A stretch of 64,000 nucleotides of DNA, taken from positions 489 through 64,488 of the IMG/VR virus record IMGVR_UViG_3300010401_000038; one strand, written 5' to 3'. Below, piece after piece: positions 17,681 through 54,590 of this stretch (its first letter is position 1; each line of letters begins with the position of its first letter). The notes beneath the pieces are model-generated. The model saw only the letters and a list, made by a program, of their open reading frames with translations, had not been told where the DNA came from and did not search any database. The position numbers and the translations under genes were made by a program. This DNA is from a virus (taxonomy: Duplodnaviria; Caudoviricetes).

Positions 17681-18068
17681 CCCCTTCGCGCGCCTCGACG
17701 AGAGCGAAATCGCCGCGGCCGTCCGCTCCGAGGCGGCCGCCGGGGCGAGGACCAATCCTGGCCCCGACCACCTAGCCGCGCTGTTCCGCAAGGCCATCCG
17801 AGAAATCCTCAACGAGGACGAGATCAAGAAGGCGATCCGGGCGCGCCTGCTCAGGGAGCTCAAGGGCGAGGTCGCGGCCCGCTTCGGCCCCGTGCTGATG
17901 AAGATCGGCGGGGGCAGCAAGACGGGCACGAAGGGCTCGAGGAAGTACGAGGGTCGAAAGGCCGAGGAGTTCGTGGGCTGGACAGTCGCGGAGAAGATTC
18001 GCTACTCTGAGACCGGCGAGAGGCCAGCCAGGCTCACCGCACCGGCGAGCCCAAAGGAGACGACATGA
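17667..18068 (+). CDS. helical basic protein, candidate terminase small subunit
   Basis: Size, helical pattern and position upstream of TerL; no diagnostic motif. Confidence 0.4.
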   Translation: MSKTDPFARLDESEIAAAVRSEAAAGARTNPGPDHLAALFRKAIREILNEDEIKKAIRARLLRELKGEVAARFGPVLMKIGGGSKTGTKGSRKYEGRKAEEFVGWTVAEKIRYSETGERPARLTAPASPKETT

Positions 18069-18418
18069 AGCGCCTTCCGTGGTTCCTCGTATTCGTCTGC
18101 TCCGTTCTCTGCGTTGCTCTCATGGGGGCCAGCAAGGGAACCATCCGCGGCGGCGACCCCGCCGTCGTCCTGACGACCATAGCGGCCGGCCCGACCGAGA
18201 CCTGCTCGACGCTCTCGAGGGAAATCACGGGATTCATCATCCACAATCGAACGGCGCACGACACGAAGGTCTGCTTCGTCGCCGGCTGCACGGCCTCGAG
18301 CTACATGACGCTCCTGGCCAACACCTACTGGCAGGCGGACATGTACCTGAAAAACGGCGACGTCGTCTGCTTCAACGGCACGGCCGCGGACGTCGTCGAG
18401 ATGGTGACCCTCCAGTGA
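18065..18418 (+). CDS. signal-peptide-bearing small beta-rich protein
   Basis: MKRLPWFLVFVCSVLCVALMGA; AAGGAG RBS; 4 Cys in mature part. Confidence 0.7.
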   Translation: MKRLPWFLVFVCSVLCVALMGASKGTIRGGDPAVVLTTIAAGPTETCSTLSREITGFIIHNRTAHDTKVCFVAGCTASSYMTLLANTYWQADMYLKNGDVVCFNGTAADVVEMVTLQ

Positions 18419-20472
18419 AACGCCTGCTCGCCGCGGTCCTCGCCTTCCTCGTAGCGACACCGTCCTTCGCGGTGACGAGCTACTACTTCTCGAATTGCGA
18501 CGGGAGCTACAGCGGCCCCGACTACGGGCGCGGCGATGTCGCGAGGGTCGACTCGACGATCAGCGCGTGCAGTCACAGCGAGGATGGGATCCACCCCATC
18601 AACGCCTGCCGGTGCAATGGAACGCTGGCCAACTGCAACGACCTGGTCGCCCTCGCGGGCACGGACAAGAGGAACCCGTACTGCCTCGCCCCGGCGGGGT
18701 TCAACGAATCGACCGGCGGATACGACTACACATCGTTCGCCGCGGTTGCCTCCGCCGCCAACATCCACGCCGGCGACACGTTCTATCTCTGCGCCGGGCA
18801 GTGCGATGGGCTCGGCTCGGCGACCTACCACGTCGGTCCGACCATCACGTCGGGGACGGGGAACGGGTCGCTTCTGGTGCCCCGAGTCTCTGGCTCGAAC
18901 GGGAGCCCCATCCAGATCCTGCCCTACTGTGAAAACGGGACGTGCGAGACGGTGACGATCAGCGGGGACAGCAACGGGAACGGGTCTTTCGACGCGGGCG
19001 AGATCCAGCACTTCATGACCAATGCCGCGCAGTCGCCGCAGAGCGCGGGGTCCGGCGCGACGATTAGTTACTGGACCATCGACGGCGATCCGCTCGGAAC
19101 CGCGACGCACCACATCATCTTCGACAAGTGCGACGGGATCGGCATCGAGCTCGACTACACCGACCCAGGCGGCGGGGACCAGAATAACCACGATGGCGTG
19201 GCCAACGTCACGTTCAAGCACTTCGACGTCATGGAGACCGGGGCGAGGATCTGGGGAAAGGCCGATCTTGAGGCCGCGAATTGCGACTCGAACAGCGCCA
19301 ACAGCCAGTGGTTCGCGTTCAAGATCAACAACTCAGGTGGCCCAGTCGTCCTCCAGGACCTCCTCCTGAAACACATCTGCGGCGTCGGCGTGCGCTACAA
19401 CAATAACAACGACGCCTCCGCATCGCTCCTGGCGGACGGGATCCGATTCGAGGATGTCGTCTACCTGACGAACGACAACAACTTCAACGTGAACACCTCG
19501 AGTACGACCTCCTACCACGTCGCCCCGGCGGCCTCGATCACCTACCAGAACTGCGAGGCGCACGGGTTCATCTACGGCATCCAGGAGGAGGACAATATCC
19601 ACAATCTGACCGTCCAGGACAATCGCCTCTACTGCGACGGTCTCTACCGGACCGACCCCTACTGTTCGTACCCCGGCAACTACAGTTGCCTCACGGGAAT
19701 CTCGATGACGGACGGTGACACCCCGCCGTGCACGGGAGACTGCTGGAGCGACAACTACATCATCCGGCGCAACACGGTCATCGGGACCGGGAACAAGGGA
19801 AGCATCGGTGACCTCTGGACCGGCATCGCCTTCGGCGTCACGAATCGCGGCAACGGGGTGACGGCGCTCATCGAGAACAACACGGTGTCCGGTGCCAACG
19901 ACGGGTGCGACGGAACGGGACAGGCCGCGGGTCTGAGCATCAACACGGCGGAGGCCGGCGTCGTGGCCCGCAACAACTCCATCTCCAGCCCGACATCGAT
20001 CCCTGGCGGGACGGCGCACACGCTCTACATCAACGGACACGACATCTCGTTCACGAACAACATCGTCTCGGGCGGCGCGACGACCCCGTACGCCAACTTC
20101 ACGTCCTCGGCGGCCGGGTCGACCATCACGACGAACGACTTCTACGCCGGCGCTGGTCTGAACCTCCTGCGCGTCAACGCGACGAATTACACCTGCGCGA
20201 CCATCCCGACGCTGCAGACCGGGAACATCTGCTCGAAGCCCAGCTTCTCCGTTGACCCTTCCTCCACGGACGTGCCCGCCAGCCTGGCTCTGTGGGGATC
20301 CCAGGCGTGCGTCGACGCTGGCGCCTCCTGCTCGACGGACGACCTGCAGGGAACCACGAGACCGATCGGGTCGGCGTGCGACATCGGCGCCTTCGAGTAC
20401 CTGGCCCCCGTGTCGACGACGAAACCTTCCCCCGTCACCTACTGCCCGGGAGTCTTCGGGCCGTCCCAGTAG
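18415..20472 (+). CDS. signal-peptide-bearing, Cys-rich right-handed beta-helix protein with choice-of-anchor-Q-like C-terminus
   Basis: MKRLLAAVLAFLVATPSFA; IRRNTV/IENNTV/ARNNSI/FTNNIV repeats; DLQGTTRPIGSACDIGAFEY; about 26 Cys. Confidence 0.8.
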   Translation: MKRLLAAVLAFLVATPSFAVTSYYFSNCDGSYSGPDYGRGDVARVDSTISACSHSEDGIHPINACRCNGTLANCNDLVALAGTDKRNPYCLAPAGFNESTGGYDYTSFAAVASAANIHAGDTFYLCAGQCDGLGSATYHVGPTITSGTGNGSLLVPRVSGSNGSPIQILPYCENGTCETVTISGDSNGNGSFDAGEIQHFMTNAAQSPQSAGSGATISYWTIDGDPLGTATHHIIFDKCDGIGIELDYTDPGGGDQNNHDGVANVTFKHFDVMETGARIWGKADLEAANCDSNSANSQWFAFKINNSGGPVVLQDLLLKHICGVGVRYNNNNDASASLLADGIRFEDVVYLTNDNNFNVNTSSTTSYHVAPAASITYQNCEAHGFIYGIQEEDNIHNLTVQDNRLYCDGLYRTDPYCSYPGNYSCLTGISMTDGDTPPCTGDCWSDNYIIRRNTVIGTGNKGSIGDLWTGIAFGVTNRGNGVTALIENNTVSGANDGCDGTGQAAGLSINTAEAGVVARNNSISSPTSIPGGTAHTLYINGHDISFTNNIVSGGATTPYANFTSSAAGSTITTNDFYAGAGLNLLRVNATNYTCATIPTLQTGNICSKPSFSVDPSSTDVPASLALWGSQACVDAGASCSTDDLQGTTRPIGSACDIGAFEYLAPVSTTKPSPVTYCPGVFGPSQ

Positions 20473-20474
20473 AC

Positions 20475-23489: not shown

Positions 23490-24020
23490 ATGCCGCGCTA
23501 CAAAATCGAGTTCGTCTGCAACTGGGAGCCGCGCAAGCGCGGCATGGCCGAGGTCGCCATCCGGAAGTGGCTCGCGAACATGGGCGGCGTCAGCGAGCTC
23601 GACCGTCTCAGAATGGAGGAGGTCGGAGCGCCCGAGCAGCCGGCGCTCCGGATGCTCCGCCTCACCTGCGCGCAGCCGGCCGGGAAGGGAAAGGCGAAAT
23701 CGATCTGCGGGCAGACTTGGCAGAACCCGACGTTCACGCCCTGCCCGAAGTGCAACGGCCGCGCGTTCGTCACGAAGGTCGCCGAGGCGGACTACGAAAA
23801 GCACCCGCTCACCGACGCGCCGCCCGAGCCGGCCCCCGGGGATCCGAAGGCGCCGCCGGCGGAGCCTCCCAAGCCGCCGACCGTCGAGGTCGTCGAGCCC
23901 GAGAAGGACCTCCCGAAACCAGTCGAGGTCCCGCCGGGCACCCCCGAGACGCAGCTCCCCCCGGCCGTCGTCAGCCAACGCGCCCAGGAGGAGGAGAGTT
24001 ACCGCGCTCCTAACTGGTAA
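23490..24020 (+). CDS. zinc-ribbon protein with Pro-rich tail
   Basis: GGAGG RBS; C...CG...CPKC. Confidence 0.6.
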   Translation: MPRYKIEFVCNWEPRKRGMAEVAIRKWLANMGGVSELDRLRMEEVGAPEQPALRMLRLTCAQPAGKGKAKSICGQTWQNPTFTPCPKCNGRAFVTKVAEADYEKHPLTDAPPEPAPGDPKAPPAEPPKPPTVEVVEPEKDLPKPVEVPPGTPETQLPPAVVSQRAQEEESYRAPNW

Positions 24021-31095: not shown

Positions 31096-33162
31096 GTGAA
31101 CGCAGGAGACAAGGTCTCGGTCGTCATCCCCACCCGCGGTCTGTCGGACATGCTGGCGAACTGCCTGCGCAGCCTGGCAGCTCAGTGGCCGTCGCTCGAG
31201 GTCATCGTCGTCGAGCACGAGACCCACGACGCCAAGGAGATCCTCGAGGAGACGTTCCCGCGTGGGATCTACATCGAGGCGTTCGACAAGGACGCTCCCG
31301 ATCGCGGGGAGGATGGACCGAAGGGCCATTCGTACTCGACGCTCAACAACCTGGGCGTGGCGAAGGCGACCCGGCCGTACATCCTCCTGCTCAACAACGA
31401 CGTGACCGCGCGCAAGGGTTCGATCGACGCGATGGTAGAGGTCCTCGAGAAGGACGAACAGACGGGGATCGTCGGCGCGAAACTCCTGACCCCCAAGAAC
31501 AAGATCCAGCACATCGGGGTCGTGTTCAACCACTACGGCATCCCGTCGCATCTCGGGTGGGGAGAGGAGCACGCCCGCACGTTCCTACCCGCTTGGCGGA
31601 GCGAATACTTCGACGCCGTGACCTTCGCCGCTGCGCTCATCCGACGCGACCTGTGGGAGAAGCTCGGCGGCCTGTCCGACGACTACTTCTTCAACTACGA
31701 GGATTCGGACTTCTGCCTGCGCGCGCGCGCCGAGGGCTTCCGCTGCTACGTCAACCAGGTGGCGATTTTCACCCACCTCGAGGGCGGCAGCGGCGACCTG
31801 CGCACGACCGAGCACCACTCCATCAAGCGAAACCTGACGGTCTTCCGCGACAAGTGGATCGAGACCGGGACGCTGGAGAACCTGACGGGGATCCGGCTCA
31901 CGACCGGACAGGGGCCGCTGGCGATGGAGCGGCTCAACGTGATCATGATGCCGAGCGGGCGCGGCGCCGGCGTGAGCTGGTGGCGGATGGACCTCATCGG
32001 CCAGAAGCTCGTCAAGAGGAAGCTCGCCAACGTCATGTTCTGCTTCCCGGACATGAAGCAGGACGCGCTGATGGAGGCGTTCGGGCGCGCCGACCTGGCC
32101 GTCATCCAGGGGCACCACGGCGGCGACCTGCTGCGCGCGTTGCGCGCGGATCGCCCGTTCAAGACGGTGTTCGAGCACGACGATCACCCGGTCTACCTGA
32201 GCCCCTACGCCGAGGTCTACCGGACACTCGGGACCCAGGAGATCCAACTCCTCGGGAGCGACGGCAGCGCAATCTGGCTGTGGCGCGACGGCGAGAGCGG
32301 GTTCGACCTCGACCGGAACCGCGCCGCCAAGGCGTCCCTGCTCGAGACGATGGGCGCCTGTGACGCAATGACGACGACGACCGTGCCGCTGGCCGAGTAC
32401 TTCTCGACCATCAGCAAGCACGTCTTCGTCCTGCCGAACTGCGTCGACTTCGACCATTACCCGCCCGTCTTCGACCGCTACCAGCGCGCGGGTGACGATG
32501 GCGTGCGTGTCGGCTGGTGGGGAGGCGACAACCACTGGCACGACATGACCGCGATCGGGCCTTGGCTCCGTGACTTCATCAACGCGCGCGAGGACGCGAA
32601 ACTCGTGCTCATCGGCGCGTTCTACCGCGGCCCGTTCCGCGGCATCGACATGGCGAAGGTCGAGGACCAGCAGTGGGTCCACGTCGAGGCGTGGCCGTAC
32701 AAGCTGGCGACGGCCGGGCTCGACGCCGCCATCATCCCGCTCGCCAGCCCCTCCCAGCCGTACATGCAGTTCAACCACTTCAAAAGCGACATCAAGTGGC
32801 TCGAGGCCGCCGCCTACAAGATCCCCTGCCTCGTGCAGGCCGGCGTGGCGCCCTACGAGAACTGCATCGACGGGGTGAACGCGCTGACGTTCGCCTCGCG
32901 CGAGGAGTTCCTCGAGAAGCTCGATCGCCTCACGAAGGACAGCGACCTGCGCCGCCGCCTCGGGCAGGCCGCCTACGACTACGCCAGGGAGTACCGTGAC
33001 CTGGAGAAGAACATCGAGAGCTGGCTGGACATCTACCAGCAGGTCGCGAAGGGCGAGTACATCTTCGAGAAGAAGGCCAAGGAGAGCGAGGAGGCGATTC
33101 CCGCTCTCGGACCCGCCCTGCCGGCGGTCGAGGCGAGAGGGGTCCGGGATGCGGCCTCGTGA
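31096..33162 (+). CDS. two-domain glycosyltransferase (GT2 GT-A plus GT-B)
   Basis: VSVVIPT, LLLNND, YEDSDFCLRA; then WWRM, EHDD, VLPNCVD, VGWWGG, FNHFKSDIKWLE. Confidence 0.9.
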   Translation: MNAGDKVSVVIPTRGLSDMLANCLRSLAAQWPSLEVIVVEHETHDAKEILEETFPRGIYIEAFDKDAPDRGEDGPKGHSYSTLNNLGVAKATRPYILLLNNDVTARKGSIDAMVEVLEKDEQTGIVGAKLLTPKNKIQHIGVVFNHYGIPSHLGWGEEHARTFLPAWRSEYFDAVTFAAALIRRDLWEKLGGLSDDYFFNYEDSDFCLRARAEGFRCYVNQVAIFTHLEGGSGDLRTTEHHSIKRNLTVFRDKWIETGTLENLTGIRLTTGQGPLAMERLNVIMMPSGRGAGVSWWRMDLIGQKLVKRKLANVMFCFPDMKQDALMEAFGRADLAVIQGHHGGDLLRALRADRPFKTVFEHDDHPVYLSPYAEVYRTLGTQEIQLLGSDGSAIWLWRDGESGFDLDRNRAAKASLLETMGACDAMTTTTVPLAEYFSTISKHVFVLPNCVDFDHYPPVFDRYQRAGDDGVRVGWWGGDNHWHDMTAIGPWLRDFINAREDAKLVLIGAFYRGPFRGIDMAKVEDQQWVHVEAWPYKLATAGLDAAIIPLASPSQPYMQFNHFKSDIKWLEAAAYKIPCLVQAGVAPYENCIDGVNALTFASREEFLEKLDRLTKDSDLRRRLGQAAYDYAREYRDLEKNIESWLDIYQQVAKGEYIFEKKAKESEEAIPALGPALPAVEARGVRDAAS

Positions 33163-33908
33163 GCCTCACGATCGTCGTCGCGACGGCAGGACCGACCCCC
33201 GCCGCCGGCGACGAAACCTTTGCGTCCATCAAGCAGCAGATCGCCGCGGTCGCCGGGCGCCACCGGGACTCCAAGGCGCTCACGCTCGCCGGCGCGTTCG
33301 TCCGTGACCGCATCGACGACCTGAACCGCCTCCAGACCTGGACGTTCAACCTCGTGACGTCGCCGACGATCACGACGTCGCCTGGCGTCTCGAGCTACGC
33401 GGTCCCGGCCGACTTCTGGAAGGTCTACAACGCGCGCAAGACGAGCGACCCGGACTACCAGCTCTCGACCATCCGGCAGAAGACATTCGACACCCTGTTC
33501 GCGAGTCAGCGCAGCATCGTCGGCTACCCGTACCTCCTGATCATCAAGAACACGTTCCGCGGCGCGACGGTGCAGTTCTTCCCGACGCCGTCGGCCGCGT
33601 TCGACCTGAGCATCAACTACTACAAGCTGATCCAGAAGCCGGCGAGCGACTCCGACTTCCTCGACCTGCCACTCCCGTACCAAGGGGTCGTGAAGTACCA
33701 CGCGATGATGCGCATGGCCGCGCTGGGCCGGGACAGTCAGCAGCAGCAGATGTACGGTGCGATGGCCGATCGCGCGTACGCCGAGATGATGCGGTCGGAC
33801 GACGACGTCCCGGACGAGAACCTTCGGTTCACGCACATCGAGGAGCTGTCCTACCGCAGCTCCTACATGGACCCGGCGATTCGTCCCCGCGCGTACGACC
33901 TGTGGTGA
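33159..33908 (+). CDS. head-tail adaptor / tail tubular protein A-like
   Basis: SYAVPADF, GYPY, QFFPTPS, LPLPYQGVV..A pattern and position. Confidence 0.7.
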   Translation: MSLTIVVATAGPTPAAGDETFASIKQQIAAVAGRHRDSKALTLAGAFVRDRIDDLNRLQTWTFNLVTSPTITTSPGVSSYAVPADFWKVYNARKTSDPDYQLSTIRQKTFDTLFASQRSIVGYPYLLIIKNTFRGATVQFFPTPSAAFDLSINYYKLIQKPASDSDFLDLPLPYQGVVKYHAMMRMAALGRDSQQQQMYGAMADRAYAEMMRSDDDVPDENLRFTHIEELSYRSSYMDPAIRPRAYDLW

Positions 33909-33916
33909 GGTGATAC

Positions 33917-35224
33917 ATGCCGCAACTCGGATGGTTCAACTTCCTCCTGCAGGACGCCGCCGGCAACGCCCTCGCGGGCGTCAACATCGAGGTCCGCAAG
34001 CAGGCCGCGATGGTCAACGGGGCCCAGTCCGTCACGAGCGGGCAGAACATCACGGTCTACCATCCTGGTGGGCTGACGACCGGCGACACCGTCCAGCTCA
34101 ACGCTGGCGCGACCGCCTACACCGCGACCGTCATCAACGCCACGACGATCCAGCTCTCCGGGTTCTCCGGATCGCTCGCCCTTGTCGACGGAGACCACAT
34201 CCACGCCTCGACCCCTCTCGTCACGGCGTACCAGAACCCGACGGCCACCGGGTCGGCCATCACATTCCCACTCCAGACGGACGCCTCCGGAAAGGCGCGC
34301 TGCTCGACGGTCTGTGCACCCTGCACGATCTACATGTCTGGCGGCGGGATGCCGGCGCCGGACATCCGCTACGACGAGGTCCCGACGGGCTTCGAGTCGG
34401 AGTCGAGCGAGGTCTTCACGACCGGGTCGGCCGTCGCCTACGACCGGAACACGCGCCGCGCGCTCGCCGCGGGGGACAAGCACACCCGCTTCCGCGTCGC
34501 GGGCGTCGAGGTCGCGAACGTCGGCTACGACGGGACGATCTCGTCCGCCGCGGGCGCCTCGTTCGGTGGCAGCGTCACCGCCGTCGGTGGCACGTTCTCG
34601 GGCAACATCAGCGCGGTCGACGGGACATTCTCCGGCACGTTGGCCGTCTCCGGGGCGTCGACCCTCGCGGCCCTGTCAGCGGCGGCTGGAGCGTTTTCCG
34701 GTCTCATTAGCGGATCGGCCGGGCTGACGATCTCGGCGGGGTCGATCAGCCTGCCGGCCGGCGCCGTAGCCGGCGCCGCGCTCGCGGCCAACGCTGTCAG
34801 CGCGACCTACATCTCGACCGGCACCACCGATCAGGACCTCACGAACAACGGCACCTACGTCGCCGTGGTTGGCGACGGCCCCGGGACGGTGGTCGCCGTG
34901 ACCATGACGCCAGCCTCGACGGCGAGCGAAATCATCGTCATGGCCGTCGGGGTCGGCACGCCTCCTGGCGGCGCGAGCATTGGGCTCCAGTTGAGGGTCA
35001 AGAACGGCTCGACGGTCATCCACGAGGCCCTGCAGTACAGCTCTGCCGGAGCGGCGACCCTCGGAATTACGGCAACCTGCTACGCCCGGCAGACCGGCCT
35101 GACGGGGGCCCAGACCTACAGCGTGGAGGCGGCCGGGTCCGCTTCCGCTGGCGGCCACACCCTGCTCAACAGCAGCTCTACCGACCACAAGGTCAAGCTG
35201 ATCGTCATCGAGCACAAGAAGTGA
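33917..35224 (+). CDS. tail fibre-like protein
   Basis: QDAAGNALAGV...PLQTDASG head-binding-like N-terminus; Gly/Ser/Thr/Ala-rich shaft. Confidence 0.7.
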   Translation: MPQLGWFNFLLQDAAGNALAGVNIEVRKQAAMVNGAQSVTSGQNITVYHPGGLTTGDTVQLNAGATAYTATVINATTIQLSGFSGSLALVDGDHIHASTPLVTAYQNPTATGSAITFPLQTDASGKARCSTVCAPCTIYMSGGGMPAPDIRYDEVPTGFESESSEVFTTGSAVAYDRNTRRALAAGDKHTRFRVAGVEVANVGYDGTISSAAGASFGGSVTAVGGTFSGNISAVDGTFSGTLAVSGASTLAALSAAAGAFSGLISGSAGLTISAGSISLPAGAVAGAALAANAVSATYISTGTTDQDLTNNGTYVAVVGDGPGTVVAVTMTPASTASEIIVMAVGVGTPPGGASIGLQLRVKNGSTVIHEALQYSSAGAATLGITATCYARQTGLTGAQTYSVEAAGSASAGGHTLLNSSSTDHKVKLIVIEHKK

Positions 35225-36249
35225 GCCACCACGTCGTCTCCCTCGGTACTCCGACGGCAGCGGACGAGGTAGCCGTCCACGGCGGGCTCCTCCTGTACTG
35301 CGCCGGCGATCGCCTGTGGCACGACTACCGCATCGCGCCGGACCCCGACGACACGTCAAGGTTCACGCTGCAGCGCGTCGGCCGATACGACACGGTGCCG
35401 GCCGGGGTCCCGATCCTCGATTCCCTGCGCGTGCCGAAGCTCTGGATGCGGACGAACTGGCACATCTACCGCCTGAGCCGGATCGGGATGTTCACGACGC
35501 CCGAGGGGGATCAGGAGCTCGGCGACGCCGAGGCGGCGTGGGTCCTCCCCCGCGGGATGCGCGAGTATCCGAACGGGCTGGCGCTCCGCGGTGGCCTCTA
35601 CCTGCTCGGAGAAGACAGCCTCAACCACCTGATCCTCCCGGTCCTGCAGAACCCTCCGTTCGTCGACCCCGGAGACTGGTCCTGGGTGACGGACGACGAC
35701 GACTCGGATCTCGTGGAGGCTGGTGGTCTACAGTCCAAGCGGATGATCTCGTCCGACGCGCCTGATAACTCGGGGACTTTCAGCTTCAACATCCCGGTCA
35801 ATTCCACGAAGGTGGCGTACTTCTTCTCCGATCCCGGAGAGCCTGGTAGCGAGCTGTGGTCGTCCCTGTCGACCGCGCTGGCCATCGTCAACGTCAGCAC
35901 GGCCAACAGCCGGATCGACCTGACGATCCAGCTCGGCCGGGTCTCCGACTCCGGGATGTTCCGCCAGTCCTACGCCTCGTTCGGCGGCACGATCAACCTC
36001 GCGAGCACTGGACCGAAGAACTTCCAGATGTCACCATCGCCACAGGTCGGAGCCCAGGACACTGATAGGATGCGGATGGCGCTGGTCTTCACGAGGGGGA
36101 CCACGCTCGGCACGGGGGTCGTCGGAATCAGCTTCGGCAACCCGGCGCACGACAGCCTGAGCGCCCCAGTGAGCAATCCAGATTCGTCCATCGTGCAGCT
36201 CGAGGACGTCGGCCAAGCCCCCTACTATCCGTTCGCGGGAACGCCATGA
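35221..36249 (+). CDS. putative virion structural protein
   Basis: Beta-rich C-terminal half; tail module position. Confidence 0.6.
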   Translation: MSHHVVSLGTPTAADEVAVHGGLLLYCAGDRLWHDYRIAPDPDDTSRFTLQRVGRYDTVPAGVPILDSLRVPKLWMRTNWHIYRLSRIGMFTTPEGDQELGDAEAAWVLPRGMREYPNGLALRGGLYLLGEDSLNHLILPVLQNPPFVDPGDWSWVTDDDDSDLVEAGGLQSKRMISSDAPDNSGTFSFNIPVNSTKVAYFFSDPGEPGSELWSSLSTALAIVNVSTANSRIDLTIQLGRVSDSGMFRQSYASFGGTINLASTGPKNFQMSPSPQVGAQDTDRMRMALVFTRGTTLGTGVVGISFGNPAHDSLSAPVSNPDSSIVQLEDVGQAPYYPFAGTP

Positions 36250-38564
36250 AGCGCGCCGGCTGGGCGATCGCGTGCCTCGCGGCTCTCGTGCTACTCGCCT
36301 TCGTTGCGAGCGGTGACGCGGCGGCGACGCTGTACGCCGCGCGCGACGTGGCGAACAAGTTCCTCAAGGAGCAGTGGTTCTCCCTCGGGATGAAAGTGAG
36401 CCAGATCGTCAGCGACGCCGCCGACGCTGGGCCGCACTACAACGCGGCGATCGACTTCGACAACTCGTTCTCTCCGTCGGCCTCGACGAACCTCGGGCAG
36501 GTCCGCGTGACCGGCGCGATCGCGAACCCGACGACGCCGCTCATCATCGGCGACCAGGCCGGCGGCTCACTCCCGAACGGGACGTACCACGTCACCTACG
36601 CCTGGATCGGCCGCTACTCGAACGGGCTCAACGGCTCGACCCAGGCTCTCGCGGCCGAGGCCATGACGCTGGCCGGAGGTCAGGGCGACCACGTCGTCTC
36701 CGGTACGAACAACACGATGATCTTCACGCTCCCGACCGCGTACCCGACGGGCGCGACGGGGGTCAACTTCTTCTGCGCGCGCGACGGGTTCCTCTCCGGA
36801 GCCCTGAGATTCTGCGGGACGATGAATTACCCGTCGACCTCGCTCTCGATCGTGTCGTACGTCGGCACTATCGTCCCGCCGACGACGAACAATACGACCG
36901 ACATCTATGCGTTCAGGGCGCTCGCCAACGGCTTCGTGTCCTTCCCGCAGCCGGTCGGGATCGGGTCGGGCCTCTCGTTCCGGATCGCCGGTCCGTCTAC
37001 GGTCACCGCGTACAAGGCTGGCCCCTCGTTCGATTACTCTCACGACGATGGCGCGACGTTCTACAGGCTGCGGGACCCGCTGTTCTACATCCCCGTGTGC
37101 GCAGCAGGAGGTCCGACAATCGCGAGCGTCTTCGCGGCGATGGACGGAACCACCCTGCCCGTCCCGACCGCCACCGGGACGATACAGCTCGTCCAGGTCG
37201 GGTCCTGTCAGCAGGAGACCGTCACCTGGAAAAGCTACGTCGACATGCTCGGAATGGGTCCGAACATGCCCCGCGGCTTCACGCCGGTGACGGTGGACTT
37301 CACCAACGTCGTTGACGTGGCGATCAGGGACTTCTCGAACCCACTGTTCATCACGGGGTCCGGAGCCGCGCGCATCCGTTTCGATCGGAGCGCCGTCAGC
37401 GGGTCGCTCACGAACAGCAATGGCATCCTGTTCCGGGCCATCCGGACGGGGTTCACATACCTGACCTCGAGCTACTGCGGCCAGCTCAACGTCAGCGGCG
37501 GGACGTACACGATCGCGGAGAGCGACTTCACCTGCCCCGACCTGGGGGTCGTGGATCCGGCGTCAGCCAACATCCCCCTCGCCATCGGCTCGGAGAGCGG
37601 CGCCGGCGTCGCCACGCCGCAGACGAGCGCCCAGATCGTCAACAACTTCATGCGCCCGAACACACGCACGGGGCCCGGATACGATGGCTGGCTGCGGGTC
37701 TTCGTTGACGCGACTCCGACGCCGAGCATCGTCACCCTGACGGGCAACGACATCCACCTGGACAACGGCGACGCGACGGCCTGCATCGCGGCGGCGCCCG
37801 GCCAGGGAAGCCTCATCGCGATCAACACGGGGGTCGTCGACAGCGCCGGCCTCGTGAAGGTGAAGGGCAGCGGCAACACCCTCTGGGAGAGGTCGTGCGA
37901 GAAGGCGATCATCTGGAGGACGGCGCAGCTCGACCCGGCCAGCGAACTCGAGGTCGTCGGCGGAACGATGTACGCCGAGACCACCGGCACCGGTACCAGC
38001 GGGGTCGACGAGGACGCGCACTGCTACGAGGGGGCGATAGGCGCGCCAGCGAAGCCCACGTTCAAGGGCGGCCAGTGTGTCGTCGTCAACAACAACGGAG
38101 AGGCGCGCCCCTTCTACATGCACGAGGGATGCTGCGGCGCCGGGGAACACCCGATCGTCTACGTCGAGGACTACGACATCCAGACATTGAGCGCGGCGGC
38201 TTCGGCAGGCCAGGGATTCGGGGTGGGTACGTCCTGTGGCTCGGGGACCGGCTGCGACATGTTCGTCTCGCGCACGAGGATCGCGGCCACGCATCCCGGC
38301 GCGACCGGGTGGGTGGGTGACGTCTACCTCGACCCGTTCAGCCCATCTACCTCGAATATCATCCTCACGGACGTCGAGTACGATCCGACGACGACAACGA
38401 CCTCTTTCAGGACGCGGCGTGGTCTCGTCCCGCAGGCCACGGCTCCGCCGACGTGCCAGGTCGGGGATCGATACGAGGACACGAGCGGCGGGGACTGCGT
38501 GTGCACGGCGAGCGGCACGCCGGGCACGTGGACGAACACGCACGGCGTCGGCAACTGCAGCTAG
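36246..38564 (+). CDS. tailspike-like beta-helix protein carrying an N-terminal Sec signal peptide
   Basis: MKRAGWAIACLAALVLLAFVASGDAAA; GGSLPNGTYHVTYAW; C-terminal PPTCQVGDRY...CVCTASGTPGTW; about 18 Cys in mature part. Confidence 0.7.
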   Translation: MKRAGWAIACLAALVLLAFVASGDAAATLYAARDVANKFLKEQWFSLGMKVSQIVSDAADAGPHYNAAIDFDNSFSPSASTNLGQVRVTGAIANPTTPLIIGDQAGGSLPNGTYHVTYAWIGRYSNGLNGSTQALAAEAMTLAGGQGDHVVSGTNNTMIFTLPTAYPTGATGVNFFCARDGFLSGALRFCGTMNYPSTSLSIVSYVGTIVPPTTNNTTDIYAFRALANGFVSFPQPVGIGSGLSFRIAGPSTVTAYKAGPSFDYSHDDGATFYRLRDPLFYIPVCAAGGPTIASVFAAMDGTTLPVPTATGTIQLVQVGSCQQETVTWKSYVDMLGMGPNMPRGFTPVTVDFTNVVDVAIRDFSNPLFITGSGAARIRFDRSAVSGSLTNSNGILFRAIRTGFTYLTSSYCGQLNVSGGTYTIAESDFTCPDLGVVDPASANIPLAIGSESGAGVATPQTSAQIVNNFMRPNTRTGPGYDGWLRVFVDATPTPSIVTLTGNDIHLDNGDATACIAAAPGQGSLIAINTGVVDSAGLVKVKGSGNTLWERSCEKAIIWRTAQLDPASELEVVGGTMYAETTGTGTSGVDEDAHCYEGAIGAPAKPTFKGGQCVVVNNNGEARPFYMHEGCCGAGEHPIVYVEDYDIQTLSAAASAGQGFGVGTSCGSGTGCDMFVSRTRIAATHPGATGWVGDVYLDPFSPSTSNIILTDVEYDPTTTTTSFRTRRGLVPQATAPPTCQVGDRYEDTSGGDCVCTASGTPGTWTNTHGVGNCS

Positions 38565-38576
38565 AAGGGAGGACAG

Positions 38577-38879
38577 GTGGAGATTCCGGATCAGCTTTGG
38601 AACGAGACCCTCATGGGCGCCGGCCAGATTGCCCTCGACCGCGAGCGGCAATTCATGGCCGTGAGGCACCTCACCTTGGAGCTCGAGAAAGAGAAGGAAA
38701 AGGTCGCGTTCCTGGAGGGCCTCCTCGCGCAGAGGGCAGAAGTCGAGATGGAGCTTCGGGATCAGATCAAGAAGGCGACGACCCACGCCTACGTCGTGAA
38801 AACCGGCAGCGAGCCAGCGGCCGTTGAGGGTAGCGCACCGCAGGCACCGGACGCCATCGAGGGCATCCCGGAGGGATAG
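38577..38879 (+). CDS. coiled-coil protein, possible fibre chaperone
   Basis: GGAGGA RBS; heptad pattern. Confidence 0.55.
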   Translation: MEIPDQLWNETLMGAGQIALDRERQFMAVRHLTLELEKEKEKVAFLEGLLAQRAEVEMELRDQIKKATTHAYVVKTGSEPAAVEGSAPQAPDAIEGIPEG

Positions 38880-40873
38880 ATGCGGCCGTTCCCGATTCCG
38901 GTCAGCGAAGGATGCGAGTTCGGCAAGCCACCCGACGCCATCACCAGGGGGGCCTGCCGCGTCGCGCGCAACTCCTTCTACGAGCCGGAGTCGGACACGC
39001 TGCATCAGCTCTGGTGGCGGTCCCAGTTCGGCACGCTGCAGTCGAACCAGACGCCGAAGGGCATCTCGGCCGTGCGCTTCCGGAACGGCAACCGCTTCAT
39101 CGTGGGAGCGGCCGGCAACAAGATCGTCCAGGCCCCGATGGGCGAGACCGGGACGTTCACCGTCCTCAAGACCCTGGCGTCCCAGCTCGGCGACGCGACC
39201 TTCCAGTACAACAACGACGACGACCACCTCTACATCATGGACGGCGTCAACGCGCCGCAGGTGTGGGACGGGGTCTCCGGAGCGACGCGGGATATGGGGC
39301 TCCGCGCGCCGACCTCACCGCTGGTCATCAGCCTCTTGAGCAACGCGCAGACGACCTACGCGATCGGGTCCACCTTCCAGTACCTCATCACGGAGTTCGA
39401 TTCCGTCAACGACGTCGAAAGCGGCCCGGGGCCAGTCGGGGTGACGGCCATCAGTGCGACCGGGCAGACAATCAAGATCGCGCTCCCCGCGAAGCTCAAC
39501 GCGAGCGCCGACACCTTCCGCCTCTACCGCACGCAGGCCGGCGGATCCGTGTGGTTCCGCATGGCTGAGTTCCCCGCGACGCTCTCGTTCTACTACGACG
39601 GCGCCAACACGGACGGCGGGACCCCGGCGCAGCAGAACACCGACCAGTACCCCTTCGTCACGCTCGACGATCTGTTCCTGTCGGCCCTCCCCGTCATGCC
39701 GATGGTCGGGGAGCCACTCCAGAACAACTACGTGACGGTGAACGGGTCCATCCCCATCGGCGACATCGCCCTGTTCTTCCAGGGATGCCTGCTCATCGCC
39801 GGCGTTGACGACTTCCCGCAGCACGTCTACTACAGCCTGCCTGGCCTGCCGGAGTGTTTCAGCCCGGTCTACTTCCTCAACGAGTCGAGCGCGGCGGCGA
39901 GCCGGTGACCGGCCTGGCGATCGCGAACGACAAGCTCGTGACGTTCAACCGCAACCGCATCTCGCGCTATGACCGCATCCCGTTCGTCACTGACCCCGGG
40001 TTCGGGACGGGAGCGACGACGCGCCAGAACGTCGCCGAGGACCACGGCTCGATCGCGAAGCGCGCCGTCGTGCCGTTCAGCGTTGGGTTGCCGAACAGCC
40101 GGTGCTTCTACCTGAGCAACCGCGGCCCGTTCGTGACGGACGCCTATCGCACCATCCCCATCGGCGCCGACCTCGACTGGGACAAGCTGTTCATCAACTA
40201 CGCCGCCATCAGCGGCGCGGTGGCGGTGAACTGGCCGAAGTATCGCGTCATCATCCTGTGCCTCCCCAGCGCCGGGTCGACGGTGAACGACTTCGCCCTC
40301 ATCTACCACTACGACCCGTCGCACGCGAAGCGCGGCGCCGAGATCGGGAAGTGGACCGGCCCCATCGACATCCGGATCGCCTGCGCCGCCGTGAGCCACG
40401 AGGCCGCGCTCGAGACGCGCCTGTTCCTCGGAGACTCGCGGGCCAACGGTCAGGTCTATCTCGAGGACAACGGCGCGACCGACGCTGGTCAGTTCACGAA
40501 CGCGAGCGGCGACGTCAACTGGGAAGTCGAGACGGGCGACGTCCCGATCGGTAGCCCCACCCGCCAGACCTTCCTCGGCAACGCCTTCGTGAGCCTTGAG
40601 GACACCGGCGACTACGACGGAACCTTCCTGACCGCTGTCGACCGATCAGATACGGAGCTCGAGCAGCCGCTCGAGAACCTCACCCCGAACGAGGATTCCA
40701 CGGAGATCGTCGGCACGACCAGCGTCACGCGCAAGAAGGGTCGCACCTACGTCGCCGGCATCTACGAGATGGCGTCGCACCTGCGCGTCCACCTCAAGGC
40801 CAGCGGTCACGGCACGCGCCGCCACGTCGTCAGCATCGAGACCGAGGGAGAGGACCGTGGTCCACGCCGATGA
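38880..40873 (+). CDS. tail nozzle / tail tubular protein B-like, split by an apparent frameshift at about 39884
   Basis: LYIMDGVNAPQVWDG, VYYSLPG.PE.F then GEPVTGLA, FYLSNRG in the -1 frame; beta-propeller-like repeats. Confidence 0.7.
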
Positions 40874-41436
40874 TCCAGCTCCCGCGACCCTACGCGCTCC
40901 CCGTGCACGGCCCTCAGAGCTTCGAGGAGCTGACCAGGCAGATGTCCGCCGTCGACAGCGCGATCATCGACATCCTCGAGAGCCTCAAGCAGATCGCGCA
41001 GTTCGTAAACCGGCAGCTCGCCCTAGCGAGTACTCCGCCGGCGATCGTTTTCGGGACGGTCGCCGGGACCGGGATCAGCCCGCAGTTCGTACGCTCCGAC
41101 GCGACGCTCGCCATCTTCACCACGAGCACACCGGCCGTGCTCGGGGCAGTCGGCGCGACCGGGTCGGCGGCGTTCGCCGCGCGCGTGGACCACGTCCACA
41201 AGTCGGAGACGCCCGGGGATTGGTACGCGAGCGCGAACGGCAAGGGCCTGGTCACGAAGGACGCGCAGGGGACTGCGCGCTACTGGCGGATCAGCGTGAC
41301 CAACGGAACGGGCAACCCGACAGGAGGCGCCACACTGACCGTCAGCTCGCTCGGGAACCTGAGCGCCAGCCGGGACGGTGGCGCAACGGGCAACCTGCTC
41401 ATCCGCATCGACGACGTGGGAACGACGCCTCCGTAG
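40870..41436 (+). CDS. virion protein with fibre-repeat motifs (FVRSD, ARVDHVH)
   Basis: G.S..FAR.DHVH motif; ATGA coupling. Confidence 0.6.
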   Translation: MIQLPRPYALPVHGPQSFEELTRQMSAVDSAIIDILESLKQIAQFVNRQLALASTPPAIVFGTVAGTGISPQFVRSDATLAIFTTSTPAVLGAVGATGSAAFAARVDHVHKSETPGDWYASANGKGLVTKDAQGTARYWRISVTNGTGNPTGGATLTVSSLGNLSASRDGGATGNLLIRIDDVGTTPP

Positions 41437-41444
41437 GCGTCGCC

Positions 41445-41473
41445 TTGCGGGAGAGAGGGCGTCCCGATATGAT
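41445..41473 (+). promoter_or_regulatory. promoter TTGCGG-N17-TATGAT upstream of ejection-protein genes
   Basis: Intergenic; near-consensus -10 with 17-nt spacer. Confidence 0.55.
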
Positions 41474-41512
41474 TCGCACGGACGCGCCGAACCGCGGCGC
41501 TGGGTGGCTCAC

Positions 41513-42799: not shown

Positions 42800-43891
42800 A
42801 TGGCGCTCCTCCCTGTACAGCCGAACGACCCGCGCTACCCGCAGCCGATCCCGGGTATGCCGCCGATGCCCCCGCTCCCTCCCGCTCCGGTCGTGCCGGG
42901 GGTCGCCGGGCCTCCTGCGTGGGGTGCCATCCCTCCCGGCACTCCAGCCCCGGGGCCGGCCGTCGACTCGCTCCCGTTCGCGAATCCGACGCCCCCCGGG
43001 ATGGCCGCTTCTCCAGCGACGCCCGACCAGCCGCCCTTCGGTGGGACGGAGTACTGGTCGAACGTGATGCGCAAGTACCTCGACGAGATGACGCGCGTCC
43101 AGCCGCCCATCCAGCCGCAGCCGCTCGACAACAGCCAGGTCGCAGCGTTCATGCTCAATCCGTCGATGCGCCCGCAGCTCATGGAGATGTACCACGAGCC
43201 CATGCGCGCGGCGATCGCCAACTCGCGATCGCGCGACGAGATGCTCGGGCGCGCCGTGGGCGGCGCCGGACACATGCTGGCCGCCGCAGGCGAGTACGAG
43301 CAGCGCGCCGCGGAGGACCGCCGCCGCAAGGACGCGCAGGACTACCAGACCGCCCACAGCGCCGCCCTCAACGGCGACGTCAACTTCGATTTCAGCCGCT
43401 TCCCGGAGCTCGCGAGCCTGGCGCACACGAAGGCCGTCCAGTTCGGGACGATCCACGCGCCGGAGGACCGGGTCACGCGACAGGACCGCCTCCGCAAGGA
43501 GTGGGGTGGCCACCTCGACAAGTTGCGCGGCGACATCGACAAGGTGCGCGAGCAGCGCATCCAGCTCGGGCTCAATCCCAACTTCCAGAGCCTCTCGAGC
43601 CTCCTGGTCGGGCAGGACGAGGACGCGAAGAAGTACGCCAAGACGCAGATCGGCGACCTGGCCGACGCGCGCCAGAGTCTCGTCGAACAGGAGGGGCAGC
43701 TCAAGGGCGAGTACGAGTTCGTCGCCCACCTGAGCACGGCGATGGGACCGCACGGCGAGCCGTCGCCCTACGAGAACTTCATCAACCTGTCCGACCCGGA
43801 GCGCCGCAAGATCATGGACGAGTTCGCGCGGGCCCAGGCACGGAAATCCAGCCAAGGTGACGTGGTCCGTGGACCGCTCGCGAGCCCCTGA
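42800..43891 (+). CDS. putative internal virion/ejection protein
   Basis: GAGGT RBS; Pro-rich then helical; position. Confidence 0.65.
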   Translation: MALLPVQPNDPRYPQPIPGMPPMPPLPPAPVVPGVAGPPAWGAIPPGTPAPGPAVDSLPFANPTPPGMAASPATPDQPPFGGTEYWSNVMRKYLDEMTRVQPPIQPQPLDNSQVAAFMLNPSMRPQLMEMYHEPMRAAIANSRSRDEMLGRAVGGAGHMLAAAGEYEQRAAEDRRRKDAQDYQTAHSAALNGDVNFDFSRFPELASLAHTKAVQFGTIHAPEDRVTRQDRLRKEWGGHLDKLRGDIDKVREQRIQLGLNPNFQSLSSLLVGQDEDAKKYAKTQIGDLADARQSLVEQEGQLKGEYEFVAHLSTAMGPHGEPSPYENFINLSDPERRKIMDEFARAQARKSSQGDVVRGPLASP

Positions 43892-54083: not shown

Positions 54084-54590
54084 ATGCCGACGGAAGACCT
54101 GGCCGGGAATCTCACCGCAGCGATCGCGCGGTACGCTCCGGACCTGCACGTTCCGGAGGGCATCAACGCGATCGCCCTCCTGCGCGCGCTCGCATCCCAG
54201 GAGACGAGCGACCCGTCACGCACGAGGTCCTCGAAGCACGAGAATAGCTACTGCTACGGCGGCCGCTACCACACCTCGGCCCTGCGGCAGGTGGAGTGGA
54301 AGTACGGCTGCGCGGTACACTCAAGCTGGTCACCCTGGCAGATCATGTACGCCACCGCCGCGCTGCGCGGATTCGAGGGTGATCCGGTTGAGCTGCGCGA
54401 TCCGATGGTCGCCGGCCAATACGTCGTGGCCGAGCTCAACGAGCGCGTCTTCGATCTTCTGCAGGACGTGAAGCTCCAGGACATCTTCGACGAGTGGAAC
54501 AGCGGCACGGCACGCGACAACCTCATGCCGGCGAAATACATCTCCGAGGCGACGGACCTGTACAACCACTTCGCGGGGCTCACGACATGA
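54084..54590 (+). CDS. endolysin, lysozyme-like/transglycosylase fold
   Basis: ASQETS, KHE, SSWSPWQIMYATA..RGF, WNSG; first gene after structural module. Confidence 0.75.
   Translation: MPTEDLAGNLTAAIARYAPDLHVPEGINAIALLRALASQETSDPSRTRSSKHENSYCYGGRYHTSALRQVEWKYGCAVHSSWSPWQIMYATAALRGFEGDPVELRDPMVAGQYVVAELNERVFDLLQDVKLQDIFDEWNSGTARDNLMPAKYISEATDLYNHFAGLTT

What the first reader, a model, noticed from the sequence alone, without database searches (positions are those of the whole stretch)
36246..38564. Tailspike-like protein with a classical Sec signal peptide inside the tail operon
Seen: the 772-aa ORF is ATGA-coupled within the adaptor-fibre-nozzle block, yet begins MKR + hydrophobic core + small-residue cleavage region (MKRAGWAIACLAALVLLAFVASGDAAA). 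Its mature part has about 18 Cys, often closely paired, plus tail-fibre-type motifs. Established: tailed-phage virions assemble in the reducing cytoplasm and their fibres normally lack signal peptides; Sec-exported proteins gain disulfides in the periplasm. Inference: a receptor-binding/spike subunit is exported, folded oxidatively and joins particles only at or after lysis, or acts as a free depolymerase. With 18065-20472 this suggests an extracytoplasmic virion-maturation pathway.
Basis: partly seen in the sequence, partly recalled or inferred. Interest (0 to 1): 0.8.

Follow-up and report, generated by a model that had tools for sequence, protein, structure and literature searches.

The report
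Exported, cysteine-rich tailspike-like phage protein
A phage tail operon encodes a tailspike-shaped protein that carries a genuine export signal and many conserved cysteines, so it is most likely sent out of the cytoplasm to fold and act as a free sugar-binding or sugar-cutting enzyme, not built into the virus tail.

Summary
ORF 36246-38564 (772 aa) is coding (GC3 0.90). It starts at an ATGA overlap with the upstream gene. It opens with a Sec-type signal peptide: MKR, an 18-residue hydrophobic core, then AAA|T. All 5 distant homologues also begin with a signal-like segment.

The body is a right-handed beta-helix (VIA Z 24 to the Sf6 tailspike) and is modelled as a homotrimer (score 0.88, best control 0.00). 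It ends in a 48-residue module with four invariant Cys. That module occurs almost only on signal-bearing proteins of phage contigs.

Signal-bearing ORFs of the window hold 3.0% Cys; the other late ORFs hold 0.48%.

The "joins the virion" reading is weakened:
- A close relative (MCP 82% identical) has the same adaptor, fibre and nozzle genes but lacks this gene, as a clean gene-sized gap.
- The family sits in unrelated tail backgrounds.
- Paralogous exported beta-helices lie outside the tail module.

Best reading (0.55): the protein is exported by Sec, folds with disulfides, forms a trimer, and acts as a free glycan-binding or glycan-cutting enzyme released at lysis. Attachment to virions after lysis stays possible (about 0.15). 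I rate it a new variant of a known kind.

The parts
36246..36326 (+). Signal peptide, residues 1-27: n-region MKR, h-region A4-A21, c-region SGDAAA, predicted cleavage A27|T28
   Evidence: Read from the sequence. Hydrophobic maximum 3.03. GC3 of the first 30 codons 0.87. Equivalent segments in 5 of 5 homologues.
36327..37085 (+). Mature N-terminal region, residues 28-280: a short conserved segment, then a fibronectin-III-like stretch (named by eye). Poorly modelled.
   Evidence: Conserved columns in A1. pLDDT mostly below 50. No family hit.
37086..38285 (+). Right-handed parallel beta-helix, residues about 281-680
   Evidence: AF2 pLDDT 70-95. VIA Z 24.0 to the Sf6 tailspike and Z 22 to CBA120 TSP3, RbmB and AlgE6. 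Foldseek hits to tailspikes and lyases. Periodic trimer contacts.
38418..38561 (+). C-terminal 48-residue Cys module, residues 725-772, with four invariant Cys (737, 751, 753, 771). It forms part of the modelled trimer interface.
   Evidence: Alignment A2 of 18 sequences. Matches in representatives P0007-P0025. Found in 5 viral loci and 1 genome locus. Interface residues 724-769.
35221..36249 (+). Upstream 342-aa tail-module protein without a signal peptide, ATGA-coupled to the target. Its C-terminal half is a jelly-roll beta-sandwich.
   Evidence: 55% identical homologue in L008. Its C-terminal domain recurs in L003, L005, L006 and L007. VIA Z 8-11 to beta-sandwich and CBM-type domains, from a weak model with mean pLDDT 49.
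38577..38879 (+). Downstream 100-aa ORF. In the relative L008 its homologue follows the 342-aa gene after only a 25-nt spacer.
18065..18418 (+). Second exported ORF: 117 aa, signal-like N-terminus, 6 Cys
   Evidence: Homologue in G001 at L009 857-1228.
18415..20472 (+). Third exported ORF: 685 aa from an internal GTG that overlaps the previous stop. Signal-like N-terminus, 26 Cys, and a choice-of-anchor Q domain near the C-terminus.
   Evidence: NCBIfam NF041518, E 1.7e-08. Signal-bearing homologues in L003, L007 and L009.
33159..33908 (+). SU10-type adaptor, which fixes the tail-module context
   Evidence: PF24175, E 1.1e-19. 67% identical in L008.

Best explanation
The gene encodes a tailspike-type protein in which an export signal precedes the mature chain. 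It is made late, as part of the tail operon.

Proposed pathway:
1. The unfolded chain crosses the inner membrane through Sec and the signal is cut, probably after A27.
2. The mature chain folds in the oxidising periplasm, where its conserved cysteines form disulfides.
3. It assembles into a homotrimer of right-handed beta-helices, capped by the C-terminal four-Cys module.
4. The trimer acts as a free glycan-binding or glycan-cutting enzyme, not as a built-in tail part. It can work on the infected cell's own surface polysaccharide before lysis. After lysis it is released as a disulfide-stabilised soluble enzyme that strips polysaccharide from debris and neighbouring cells.

What is shown here: the ORF, the signal-type N-terminus and its conservation, the fold, the Cys enrichment and conservation, the gene's absence from a close relative, and the family's spread across phage contigs. 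The trimer is modelled, not shown.

What is inferred: actual export, cleavage, disulfides, enzymatic activity and the substrate.
For: Signal.
- The n/h/c anatomy is in the sequence.
- It is one of only three such N-termini among 54 ORFs.
- All five full-length or partial homologues found among 1.84 billion representatives (P0002-P0006, 33-46% identity) begin with basic residues and a hydrophobic core, although that segment is not conserved in sequence.

Extracytoplasmic chemistry.
- Signal-bearing ORFs hold 53 Cys in 1752 residues (3.0%). The 25 other late ORFs hold 49 in 10284 (0.48%); Fisher p = 5e-19. The target alone against the non-signal ORFs without the 3387-aa protein gives p = 2.6e-05.
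- Ten Cys are invariant in alignment A1.

Fold.
- VIA Z 24.0, rmsd 3.0-3.9 over 340-374 residues, to the Sf6 tailspike.
- Z 19-22 to the CBA120 TSP3 and HK620 tailspikes, the RbmB lyase and AlgE4/AlgE6.
- Foldseek gives E 3.6e-04 to CBA120 TSP3 and E 3e-06 to phage pectate-lyase-type proteins.
- The nearest Atlas cluster is viral and carries PF12708, score 0.92.

Trimer.
- Three copies of residues 440-772 gave a median score of 0.88, best of 3 controls 0.00.
- In the tool's calibration this mark was reached by 20 of 30 solved homomers and 1 of 23 single chains.
- The runs share at least 81% of contacts, and pLDDT is at least 79.

Not a core tail part.
- The relative L008/G001 (MCP 82%, portal 76%, adaptor 67% identical) keeps the fibre, the 342-aa gene (55% identical), the 100-aa gene and the nozzle.
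- It has a 25-nt spacer where the 2.3-kb gene lies here, and no match in its 65 kb.

Not tied to one virion type.
- P0004 lies behind unrelated tail genes.
- The C-terminal module ends signal-bearing ORFs in 5 of 5 viral loci and in 1 genome locus. These include contigs with a tail tube or tape-measure-like gene.
- 19 of 21 module-bearing representatives have a signal-like N-terminus.

Paralogous exported beta-helices outside the tail module.
- 18415-20472 lies next to the terminase gene and carries choice-of-anchor Q.
- Its homologue in G001 lies beside the replication genes.

Precedent. WceF of Pantoea is a bacterial, exported (Tat), trimeric, tailspike-like glycanase (PMC7949094, passages read).
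Against: - The gene sits in the slot where SU10 has its fibre genes (adaptor gp11, fibres gp12, gp13 and gp16, nozzle gp17; PMC9509320 passages).
- It is translationally coupled to a tail gene.
- It has no promoter-like or terminator-like site of its own on the + strand. All three points are what a structural gene would show.
- In six other phage-like loci the signal-bearing relatives occupy the far end of the tail module, the usual place of receptor-binding proteins.
- No catalytic residues were identified, and beta-helices also serve as pure adhesins (PfbA and pertactin-like hits).
- SignalP was not available, and neither cleavage nor export was shown.
- Several homologues carry twin arginines, so Tat export of some members is not excluded.
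- G001 is only 66% complete, so a copy elsewhere in that phage cannot be ruled out.
- The structure and trimer models rest on a 5-row alignment with mean pLDDT 61. The trimer pass may partly reflect the model's memory of solved tailspike trimers.
- The host is unknown. That it has two membranes is inferred only from MCP relatives at about 30% identity, which infect Proteobacteria.
Confidence: 0.55

Rival explanations
1. Extracytoplasmic virion maturation. The exported, disulfide-locked trimer is a true tail spike or receptor-binding protein. It docks onto otherwise complete particles only when lysis mixes periplasm and cytoplasm.
For: - Position between adaptor/fibre and nozzle, with ATGA coupling.
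- Tailspike fold and modelled trimer.
- Signal-bearing relatives lie at the receptor-binding-protein slot of six other phage-like loci.
- From my own knowledge, not from a call: P22 tailspikes attach to heads in vitro, so docking after lysis is physically possible.
Against: - The gene is absent from the same site in a close relative that has the same adaptor, fibre and nozzle.
- The mature N-terminal region is shared with P0004, which sits behind unrelated tail genes, so it does not behave like a lineage-specific anchor.
- Paralogous exported beta-helices lie outside tail modules.
- Non-signal tail proteins with lectin-type or beta-sandwich family or fold matches lie just upstream and could serve as the receptor binders.
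- Five literature searches turned up no report of a signal-bearing tail fibre or spike of a tailed phage.
Confidence: 0.15
2. The segment is an uncleaved signal-anchor. It holds the trimer on the outer face of the inner membrane, where it masks or destroys the phage's own receptor precursor. The function would be superinfection exclusion or protection of progeny, with no soluble role.
For: - The hydrophobic core is long, 18 residues.
- Some relatives have weak -3/-1 sites or Pro at +1.
- The gene is dispensable in a relative, as accessory exclusion genes often are.
Against: - The target has a well-formed A-A-A|T site six residues after the core.
- Heavy investment in conserved disulfide-type Cys and a trimer cap suits a stable released protein.
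- Nothing here tests topology.
Confidence: 0.1
3. An exported non-enzymatic adhesin or lysis helper. The beta-helix binds an envelope or matrix component without cutting it.
For: - The beta-helix hits include adhesins and binding proteins (PfbA, pertactin-type, NosD) at Z about 20.
- No catalytic motif or glycosidase/lyase family was matched.
- In L003, L005, L006 and L007 the relatives lie next to lysis-type genes.
Against: The top structural neighbours are enzymatically active tailspikes and polysaccharide lyases or epimerases. The nearest viral clusters carry pectate-lyase-type families.
Confidence: 0.1
4. Annotation artefact. The true start lies downstream of the hydrophobic segment and the protein is an ordinary cytoplasmic tailspike.
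For: In-frame GTG/ATG codons exist at positions 15, 35, 49 and 51.
Against: - Coding-type GC3 already over codons 1-30.
- ATGA coupling at codon 1.
- Signal-like N-termini in 5 of 5 homologues and in 19 of 21 module-bearing proteins.
- Cys enrichment unlike the other virion proteins.
Confidence: 0.03

Closest known systems
Podovirus tailspike proteins (Sf6, HK620, P22, CBA120 TSP3)
   Same: Right-handed parallel beta-helix body of similar length, modelled homotrimer with contacts along the helix and in a C-terminal cap, and location in a tail operon.
   Different: Those proteins have an N-terminal particle-binding domain and no export signal, and they fold in the cytoplasm (my knowledge). Here a Sec-type signal precedes the mature chain, the mature part holds 18 Cys of which 10 are invariant, and no sequence similarity to any phage record was found.
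WceF of Pantoea stewartii (bacterial exported tailspike-like glycanase)
   Same: Exported with a cleavable N-terminal signal; native trimer of right-handed beta-helices with a tailspike-like fold; acts on exopolysaccharide as a free enzyme (PMC7949094, passages read).
   Different: WceF is chromosomal, sits in an EPS synthesis cluster, and uses a Tat signal for folded export. The present protein is phage-encoded, has a KR (not RR) n-region with a strongly hydrophobic core typical of Sec, and is Cys-rich. Sequence relatedness was not tested, because WceF was not fetched.
Secreted or periplasmic beta-helix polysaccharide lyases and epimerases (RbmB, AlgG, AlgE4/6, PL6 lyases)
   Same: Same fold at Z 19-22, and an extracytoplasmic site of action.
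   Different: They are cellular genes. The C-terminal four-Cys module was not seen in them here, and no family-level sequence match was found.
Phage endolysins with Sec signal peptides or SAR domains (fOg44 Lys44, P1 Lyz)
   Same: A phage late protein that uses the host Sec system to reach the envelope before lysis (review PMC6116005, passages read).
   Different: Those are peptidoglycan hydrolases of the lysis cassette. This one is a 772-aa tailspike-type trimer inside the tail operon.
Morons with signal peptides in tail regions (lambda lom)
   Same: Exported accessory protein encoded among tail genes; present or absent between close relatives. The lom comparison is recalled, not from a call.
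   Different: There is no promoter or terminator of its own. The gene is translationally coupled to the tail gene before it, is much larger, and has a tailspike fold.

Membership tests
Sec-type (signal peptidase I) signal peptide | Positively charged n-region | tested here: met
   M-K-R at residues 1-3. Homologues carry 1-6 K/R before the hydrophobic core.
Sec-type (signal peptidase I) signal peptide | Uninterrupted hydrophobic h-region | tested here: met
   A4-A21 has no charged residue. The 12-residue Kyte-Doolittle mean is 3.03, against 1.98 or less for the ORFs of the window that lack a signal.
Sec-type (signal peptidase I) signal peptide | Polar c-region with small residues at -3 and -1 | tested here: met
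   S-G-D-A-A-A|T, with Ala at -3 and -1. The sites in some homologues are less clear.
Sec-type (signal peptidase I) signal peptide | Call by a trained predictor; cleavage and export in cells | not testable with these tools
   No SignalP or similar predictor is available here, and no experiment was possible.
Tat signal peptide | Twin-arginine motif (S/T-R-R-x-F-L-K) with a moderately hydrophobic core | tested here: not met
   The target has K-R and a strongly hydrophobic core. Some homologues and module-bearing relatives do carry R-R, so Tat is not excluded for them.
Lipoprotein (signal peptidase II) signal | Lipobox with an invariant Cys after a hydrophobic core, about 15-35 residues from the start | tested here: not met
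   The only early Cys is C10, inside the core. It is not conserved in the homologues.
Phage tailspike proteins | Right-handed parallel beta-helix | tested here: met
   VIA Z 24.0, rmsd 3.0, 349 residues aligned to Sf6 tailspike 2vbk. Foldseek hits.
Phage tailspike proteins | Homotrimer | tested here: met
   Model only: score 0.88, best of 3 controls 0.00. The mark was reached by 20 of 30 solved homomers and 1 of 23 single chains. The runs share at least 81% of contacts; pLDDT at least 79. The pass may reflect likeness to solved tailspike trimers.
Phage tailspike proteins | N-terminal particle-binding domain and presence in the virion | tested here: inconclusive
   Residues 28-280 are poorly modelled and match no family. 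The gene is absent from a close relative with the same tail genes.
Pfam beta-helix / pectate-lyase families (PF13229, PF12708) | Sequence match at the curated threshold | tested here: not met
   No Pfam, PHROG or NCBIfam family at E of 0.01 or below. The likeness is at fold level only.
Moron | Presence/absence between close relatives | tested here: met
   L008 has a 25-nt spacer at the site. G001 has no match.
Moron | Own promoter and terminator | tested here: not met
   No promoter-like site and no + strand terminator-like site in 33000-41500. ATGA overlap upstream and a 12-nt gap downstream.
WceF-like exported tailspike-like glycanases | Sequence homology to WceF and location in an EPS gene cluster | not tested
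   WceF was not fetched. The gene here lies in a phage tail operon, not an EPS cluster.

The most novel reading that the evidence does not exclude
A group of uncultivated tailed phages finishes its virions outside the cytoplasm. Their spikes are exported by Sec, locked by disulfides in the periplasm, and dock onto particles only when lysis brings the two compartments together. This would explain why signal-bearing, Cys-rich spike homologues fill the receptor-binding slot of tail modules in several unrelated phage types.
Probability: 0.13. Interest if true: 0.9.

Novelty: new variant of a known kind. Interest (0 to 1): 0.6.

Why it matters
Tailspikes are the textbook case of a large beta-helix trimer that folds in the cytoplasm and is built into the particle. 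Here a conserved phage family has the same fold and an export signal at the N-terminus. It also has disulfide-type cysteines and its own C-terminal cap.

If the best reading is right, these phages use the host periplasm as an oxidative folding room for a durable free enzyme. They would split "bind" (virion lectin-type proteins) from "cut" (exported enzyme). That bears on how phages escape debris and matrix, and it would be a source of stable depolymerases.

If the bolder reading is right, virion assembly of tailed phages is not strictly cytoplasmic.

Either way, gene callers and tools that predict receptor-binding proteins would mislabel these genes as ordinary tail spikes.

Tried and rejected
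Searches that found nothing.
- Pfam, PHROGs and NCBIfam gave no family for the target.
- tblastn against 50,697 phage records gave no match for the target or for 18415-20472.
- The word-indexed protein search found only the query itself, both with the single protein and with alignment A1.
- Scans with the target or with A1 found nothing in viral contigs or in species genomes. They found one locus in metagenome contigs (L002).
- The scan with the nozzle-half protein found nothing.
- Earlier findings of this scan: nothing on record.

Host assignment failed. The putative outer-membrane protein had no relative in genomes. The 168-aa protein gave one weak hit in an Omnitrophota MAG. The one genome locus that carries the module is a phage-like contig in a MAG labelled Krumholzibacteriia. 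That is too little to name a host.

The A2 scan of genomes failed for lack of a conserved stretch. I repeated it with the narrower alignment A5.

The structure of the upstream 342-aa protein came out weak (mean pLDDT 49). Its C-terminal domain matched beta-sandwich and CBM-type domains at only Z 8-11, so I do not call it a lectin.

Readings rejected for the target: a lipoprotein signal (only C10, not conserved) and a Tat signal (KR, very hydrophobic core).

Literature. Five searches and passages of one review turned up no report of a Sec-signal-bearing tailspike or tail fibre in a tailed phage.

The junction alignment hints that the L008 spacer keeps the last roughly 13 nt of the gene, which would point to deletion in L008 rather than insertion here. 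The stretch is too short to rely on.


Full report
Setting. The window is a virus record of 64,488 bases, rated 87% complete, with about 67% G+C. It is a distant SU10-type podovirus.
- Major capsid protein: 28266-29261 matches PF17236, E 1.1e-68.
- Adaptor: 33159-33908 matches PF24175, E 1.1e-19.
- Large terminase subunit: 20292-22163. The weak PHROG hit of 24020-26146 and its place in the gene order suggest that it is the portal.
- The capsid protein is only about 30% identical to those of isolated phages. Nearly all of those infect Proteobacteria (303 records).
- In SU10 the gene order is adaptor gp11, long-fibre proteins gp12 and gp13, short fibre gp16, nozzle gp17, needle gp18 (PMC9509320, passages read). 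The ORF in question lies in the corresponding slot.

The observation.
- ORF 36246-38564 encodes 772 residues.
- Its ATG overlaps the stop of ORF 35221-36249 as ATGA. It is the first start codon of an 831-codon open frame.
- GC3 is 0.90 overall. Over the first 30 codons it is 0.87, against 0.73 and 0.60 in the other frames.
- The N-terminus has M-K-R, an uncharged core A4-A21, and S-G-D-A-A-A before T28. That is a standard Sec/signal-peptidase-I layout.
- Among 54 GC3-supported ORFs only three N-termini reach a 12-residue hydropathy of 2.9 or more; the next is 1.98.
- A fourth signal-like segment starts at the GTG at 18415, inside the long 18079-20472 frame.
- The target has 19 Cys, one of them in the signal.

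Homologues keep the signal.
- HMMER against 1.84 billion representatives found 25 proteins at E of 0.001 or less. Five match over the body: P0002-P0005 full length at 35-46% identity, and P0006 partial.
- All five begin with basic residues and a hydrophobic core. The segment is not conserved in sequence in alignment A1, as expected of signal peptides.
- Ten Cys are invariant in A1.
- The remaining hits share only the last 45-50 residues. This module has four invariant Cys, and the protein ends one residue after the last of them (A2, 18 sequences).
- Of 21 representatives that carry the module, 19 have a signal-like N-terminus. One of the two exceptions starts with a non-start residue and is a fragment.
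- Two further hits (P0011, P0015) carry a related motif as internal repeats, without a signal. One hit (P0023) is a low-complexity repeat that I set aside.

Cysteine content. Signal-bearing ORFs of the window hold 53 Cys in 1752 residues. Twenty-five other late ORFs hold 49 in 10,284 (p = 5e-19). Without the Cys-free 3387-aa protein the figure is 49 in 6897 (p = 9e-13). This split is what one expects if only the signal-bearing set folds in an oxidising compartment. That is an inference.

Fold and oligomer.
- AlphaFold2 on the 5-row alignment gave mean pLDDT 61. Residues about 280-680 are confident and all-beta; residues 1-280 are poor.
- Foldseek placed the model among tailspikes and polysaccharide lyases: CBA120 TSP3 at E 3.6e-04 and phage pectate-lyase-type proteins at E 3e-06.
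- VIA-align gave Z 24.0 to the Sf6 tailspike (rmsd 3.0, 349 residues aligned). It gave Z 19-22 to CBA120 TSP3, HK620, RbmB, AlgE4/6 and NosD.
- The ESM Atlas neighbours are viral clusters carrying PF12708 (score 0.92).
- Three copies of residues 440-772 were modelled as a trimer with score 0.88, best of 3 controls 0.00. In the calibration the mark was reached by 20 of 30 solved homomers and 1 of 23 single chains. The runs share at least 81% of contacts and pLDDT is at least 79.
- The contacts recur about every 35 residues along the helix and continue through the C-terminal module. The pass may owe something to solved tailspike trimers.

Is it part of the virion? Three lines argue that it is not a core part.

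First, a close relative lacks the gene.
- L008, in record G001 (65,152 bases, 66% complete), shares the portal (76% identical), capsid (82%), glycosyltransferase (75%), adaptor (67%), fibre (N-terminal 300 residues, 56%), the 342-aa protein (55%), the 100-aa protein and the nozzle-like protein.
- In L008 the 342-aa gene and the 100-aa gene are 25 nt apart. In the window the 2.3-kb gene fills exactly that gap.
- G001 has no match to the target.

Second, the family is not tied to one tail type.
- P0004 lies on a short contig behind a PHROG tail-fibre protein and a second ORF, neither of which resembles the window's neighbours.
- The module ends signal-bearing ORFs in five viral contigs. Three of them (L003, L005, L006) have a long Cys-free tape-measure-like gene, and L003 also has a tail tube gene (PF18906).
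- It also ends a signal-bearing ORF in one phage-like contig of a MAG, the only hit among 185,579 species genomes.

Third, exported beta-helix genes of a second family lie outside tail modules.
- 18415-20472 stands before the terminase gene and carries a choice-of-anchor Q domain.
- Its signal-bearing homologues follow the module protein directly in L003 and L007.
- In G001 the homologue lies with two more signal-bearing Cys-rich ORFs beside the replication genes.

In favour of a structural role.
- The gene has no promoter-like or terminator-like site of its own and is coupled to the tail gene before it.
- In the other loci the signal-bearing protein sits where receptor-binding proteins usually lie.
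- Those loci do, however, have non-signal tail proteins with lectin-type or beta-sandwich matches just upstream: a weak SPRY hit; SO2946-like_C and Laminin_G_3; and a beta-sandwich domain in the window's 342-aa protein at Z 8-11, from a weak model.

Mechanism. I conclude that this is a tailspike-type trimer with an export signal at its N-terminus. It is made late, exported unfolded by Sec, cut after A27, oxidised and trimerised in the periplasm, and released at lysis as a stable free enzyme or binder for surface polysaccharide. Action on the infected cell's own polymer before lysis is possible.
- Shown: the sequence features, their conservation, the fold, the Cys statistics, the gene-sized gap in the relative, and the family's distribution.
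- Modelled: the trimer.
- Inferred: export, cleavage, disulfides, activity and substrate.
- Tat export is unlikely for the target (K-R, very hydrophobic core) but open for relatives with R-R.

Comparison with known systems.
- The nearest functional analogue is WceF of Pantoea, a chromosomal, Tat-exported, trimeric tailspike-like glycanase (PMC7949094, passages read).
- Phage proteins known to use Sec before lysis are endolysins (PMC6116005, passages read).
- Five full-text searches turned up no report of a signal-bearing tailspike or tail fibre of a tailed phage. The library is incomplete and supplements were closed.
- I therefore rate this a new variant of a known kind.

Limits. There was no trained signal predictor, the alignments are shallow, the host is unknown, the relative's record is incomplete, and nothing was tested by experiment.

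Noticed in passing
window 38880-39908 and 39854-40873: These two overlapping ORFs (342 and 339 aa, different frames) together match a single 706-aa protein of the relative L008 (61-63% identity), probably the nozzle. The frame changes near 39891-39896, with no obvious slippery site. It may be a sequencing or assembly indel, a real split, or a frameshift.
   Followed up: partly
window 31096-33162: A 688-aa fusion of GT2-type and GT1-type glycosyltransferase domains sits between the head genes and the adaptor. It is 75% identical in L008. Possibly it glycosylates virion proteins.
   Followed up: no
window 43891-54054: A 3387-aa ORF without a single Cys. It combines an SLT transglycosylase, an SNF2/Strawberry-notch-type helicase, a RadC-like JAB domain and LPD38, which marks it as a large polyvalent protein, presumably ejected with the DNA.
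   Followed up: partly
window 56011-56547: A 178-aa ORF with a signal-like N-terminus that ends in an aromatic residue. By eye it could be a small outer-membrane beta-barrel. It lies after the putative lysis genes. No Pfam, PHROG or NCBIfam hit, and no relative in genomes.
   Followed up: partly
window 18065-18418; L009 857-1228: A small (117-123 aa) signal-bearing, Cys-rich protein precedes the exported beta-helix gene in both related phages. No family match; function unknown.
   Followed up: partly
L011 167-2875 (record G001): A third signal-bearing, Cys-rich ORF of about 902 aa follows the beta-helix gene in the relative. By eye it ends in Asp-rich repeats that look calcium-binding. No Pfam hit and no similarity to the target.
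   Followed up: partly
window 35680-36210 (residues 153-330 of the 342-aa protein); L003 4405-5505, L005 4483-5586, L006 4299-5555, L007 10042-12516: The C-terminal domain of the 342-aa protein recurs at the N-terminus of the protein encoded shortly downstream of the tape-measure-like gene in three contigs. It is also fused to the C-terminus of a signal-bearing beta-helix protein in L007.
   Followed up: partly
window 54084-54590; L006 11085-11741: A 168-aa protein just after the giant ORF is 52% identical to a protein that lies close behind the signal-bearing module protein in L006. It may be the endolysin, but it has no family match.
   Followed up: no
proteins P0011 and P0015 (representative search): Two proteins without signals carry five or six internal repeats related to the C-terminal Cys module, each repeat with one Cys. 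The module may therefore derive from a fibre-type repeat.
   Followed up: no
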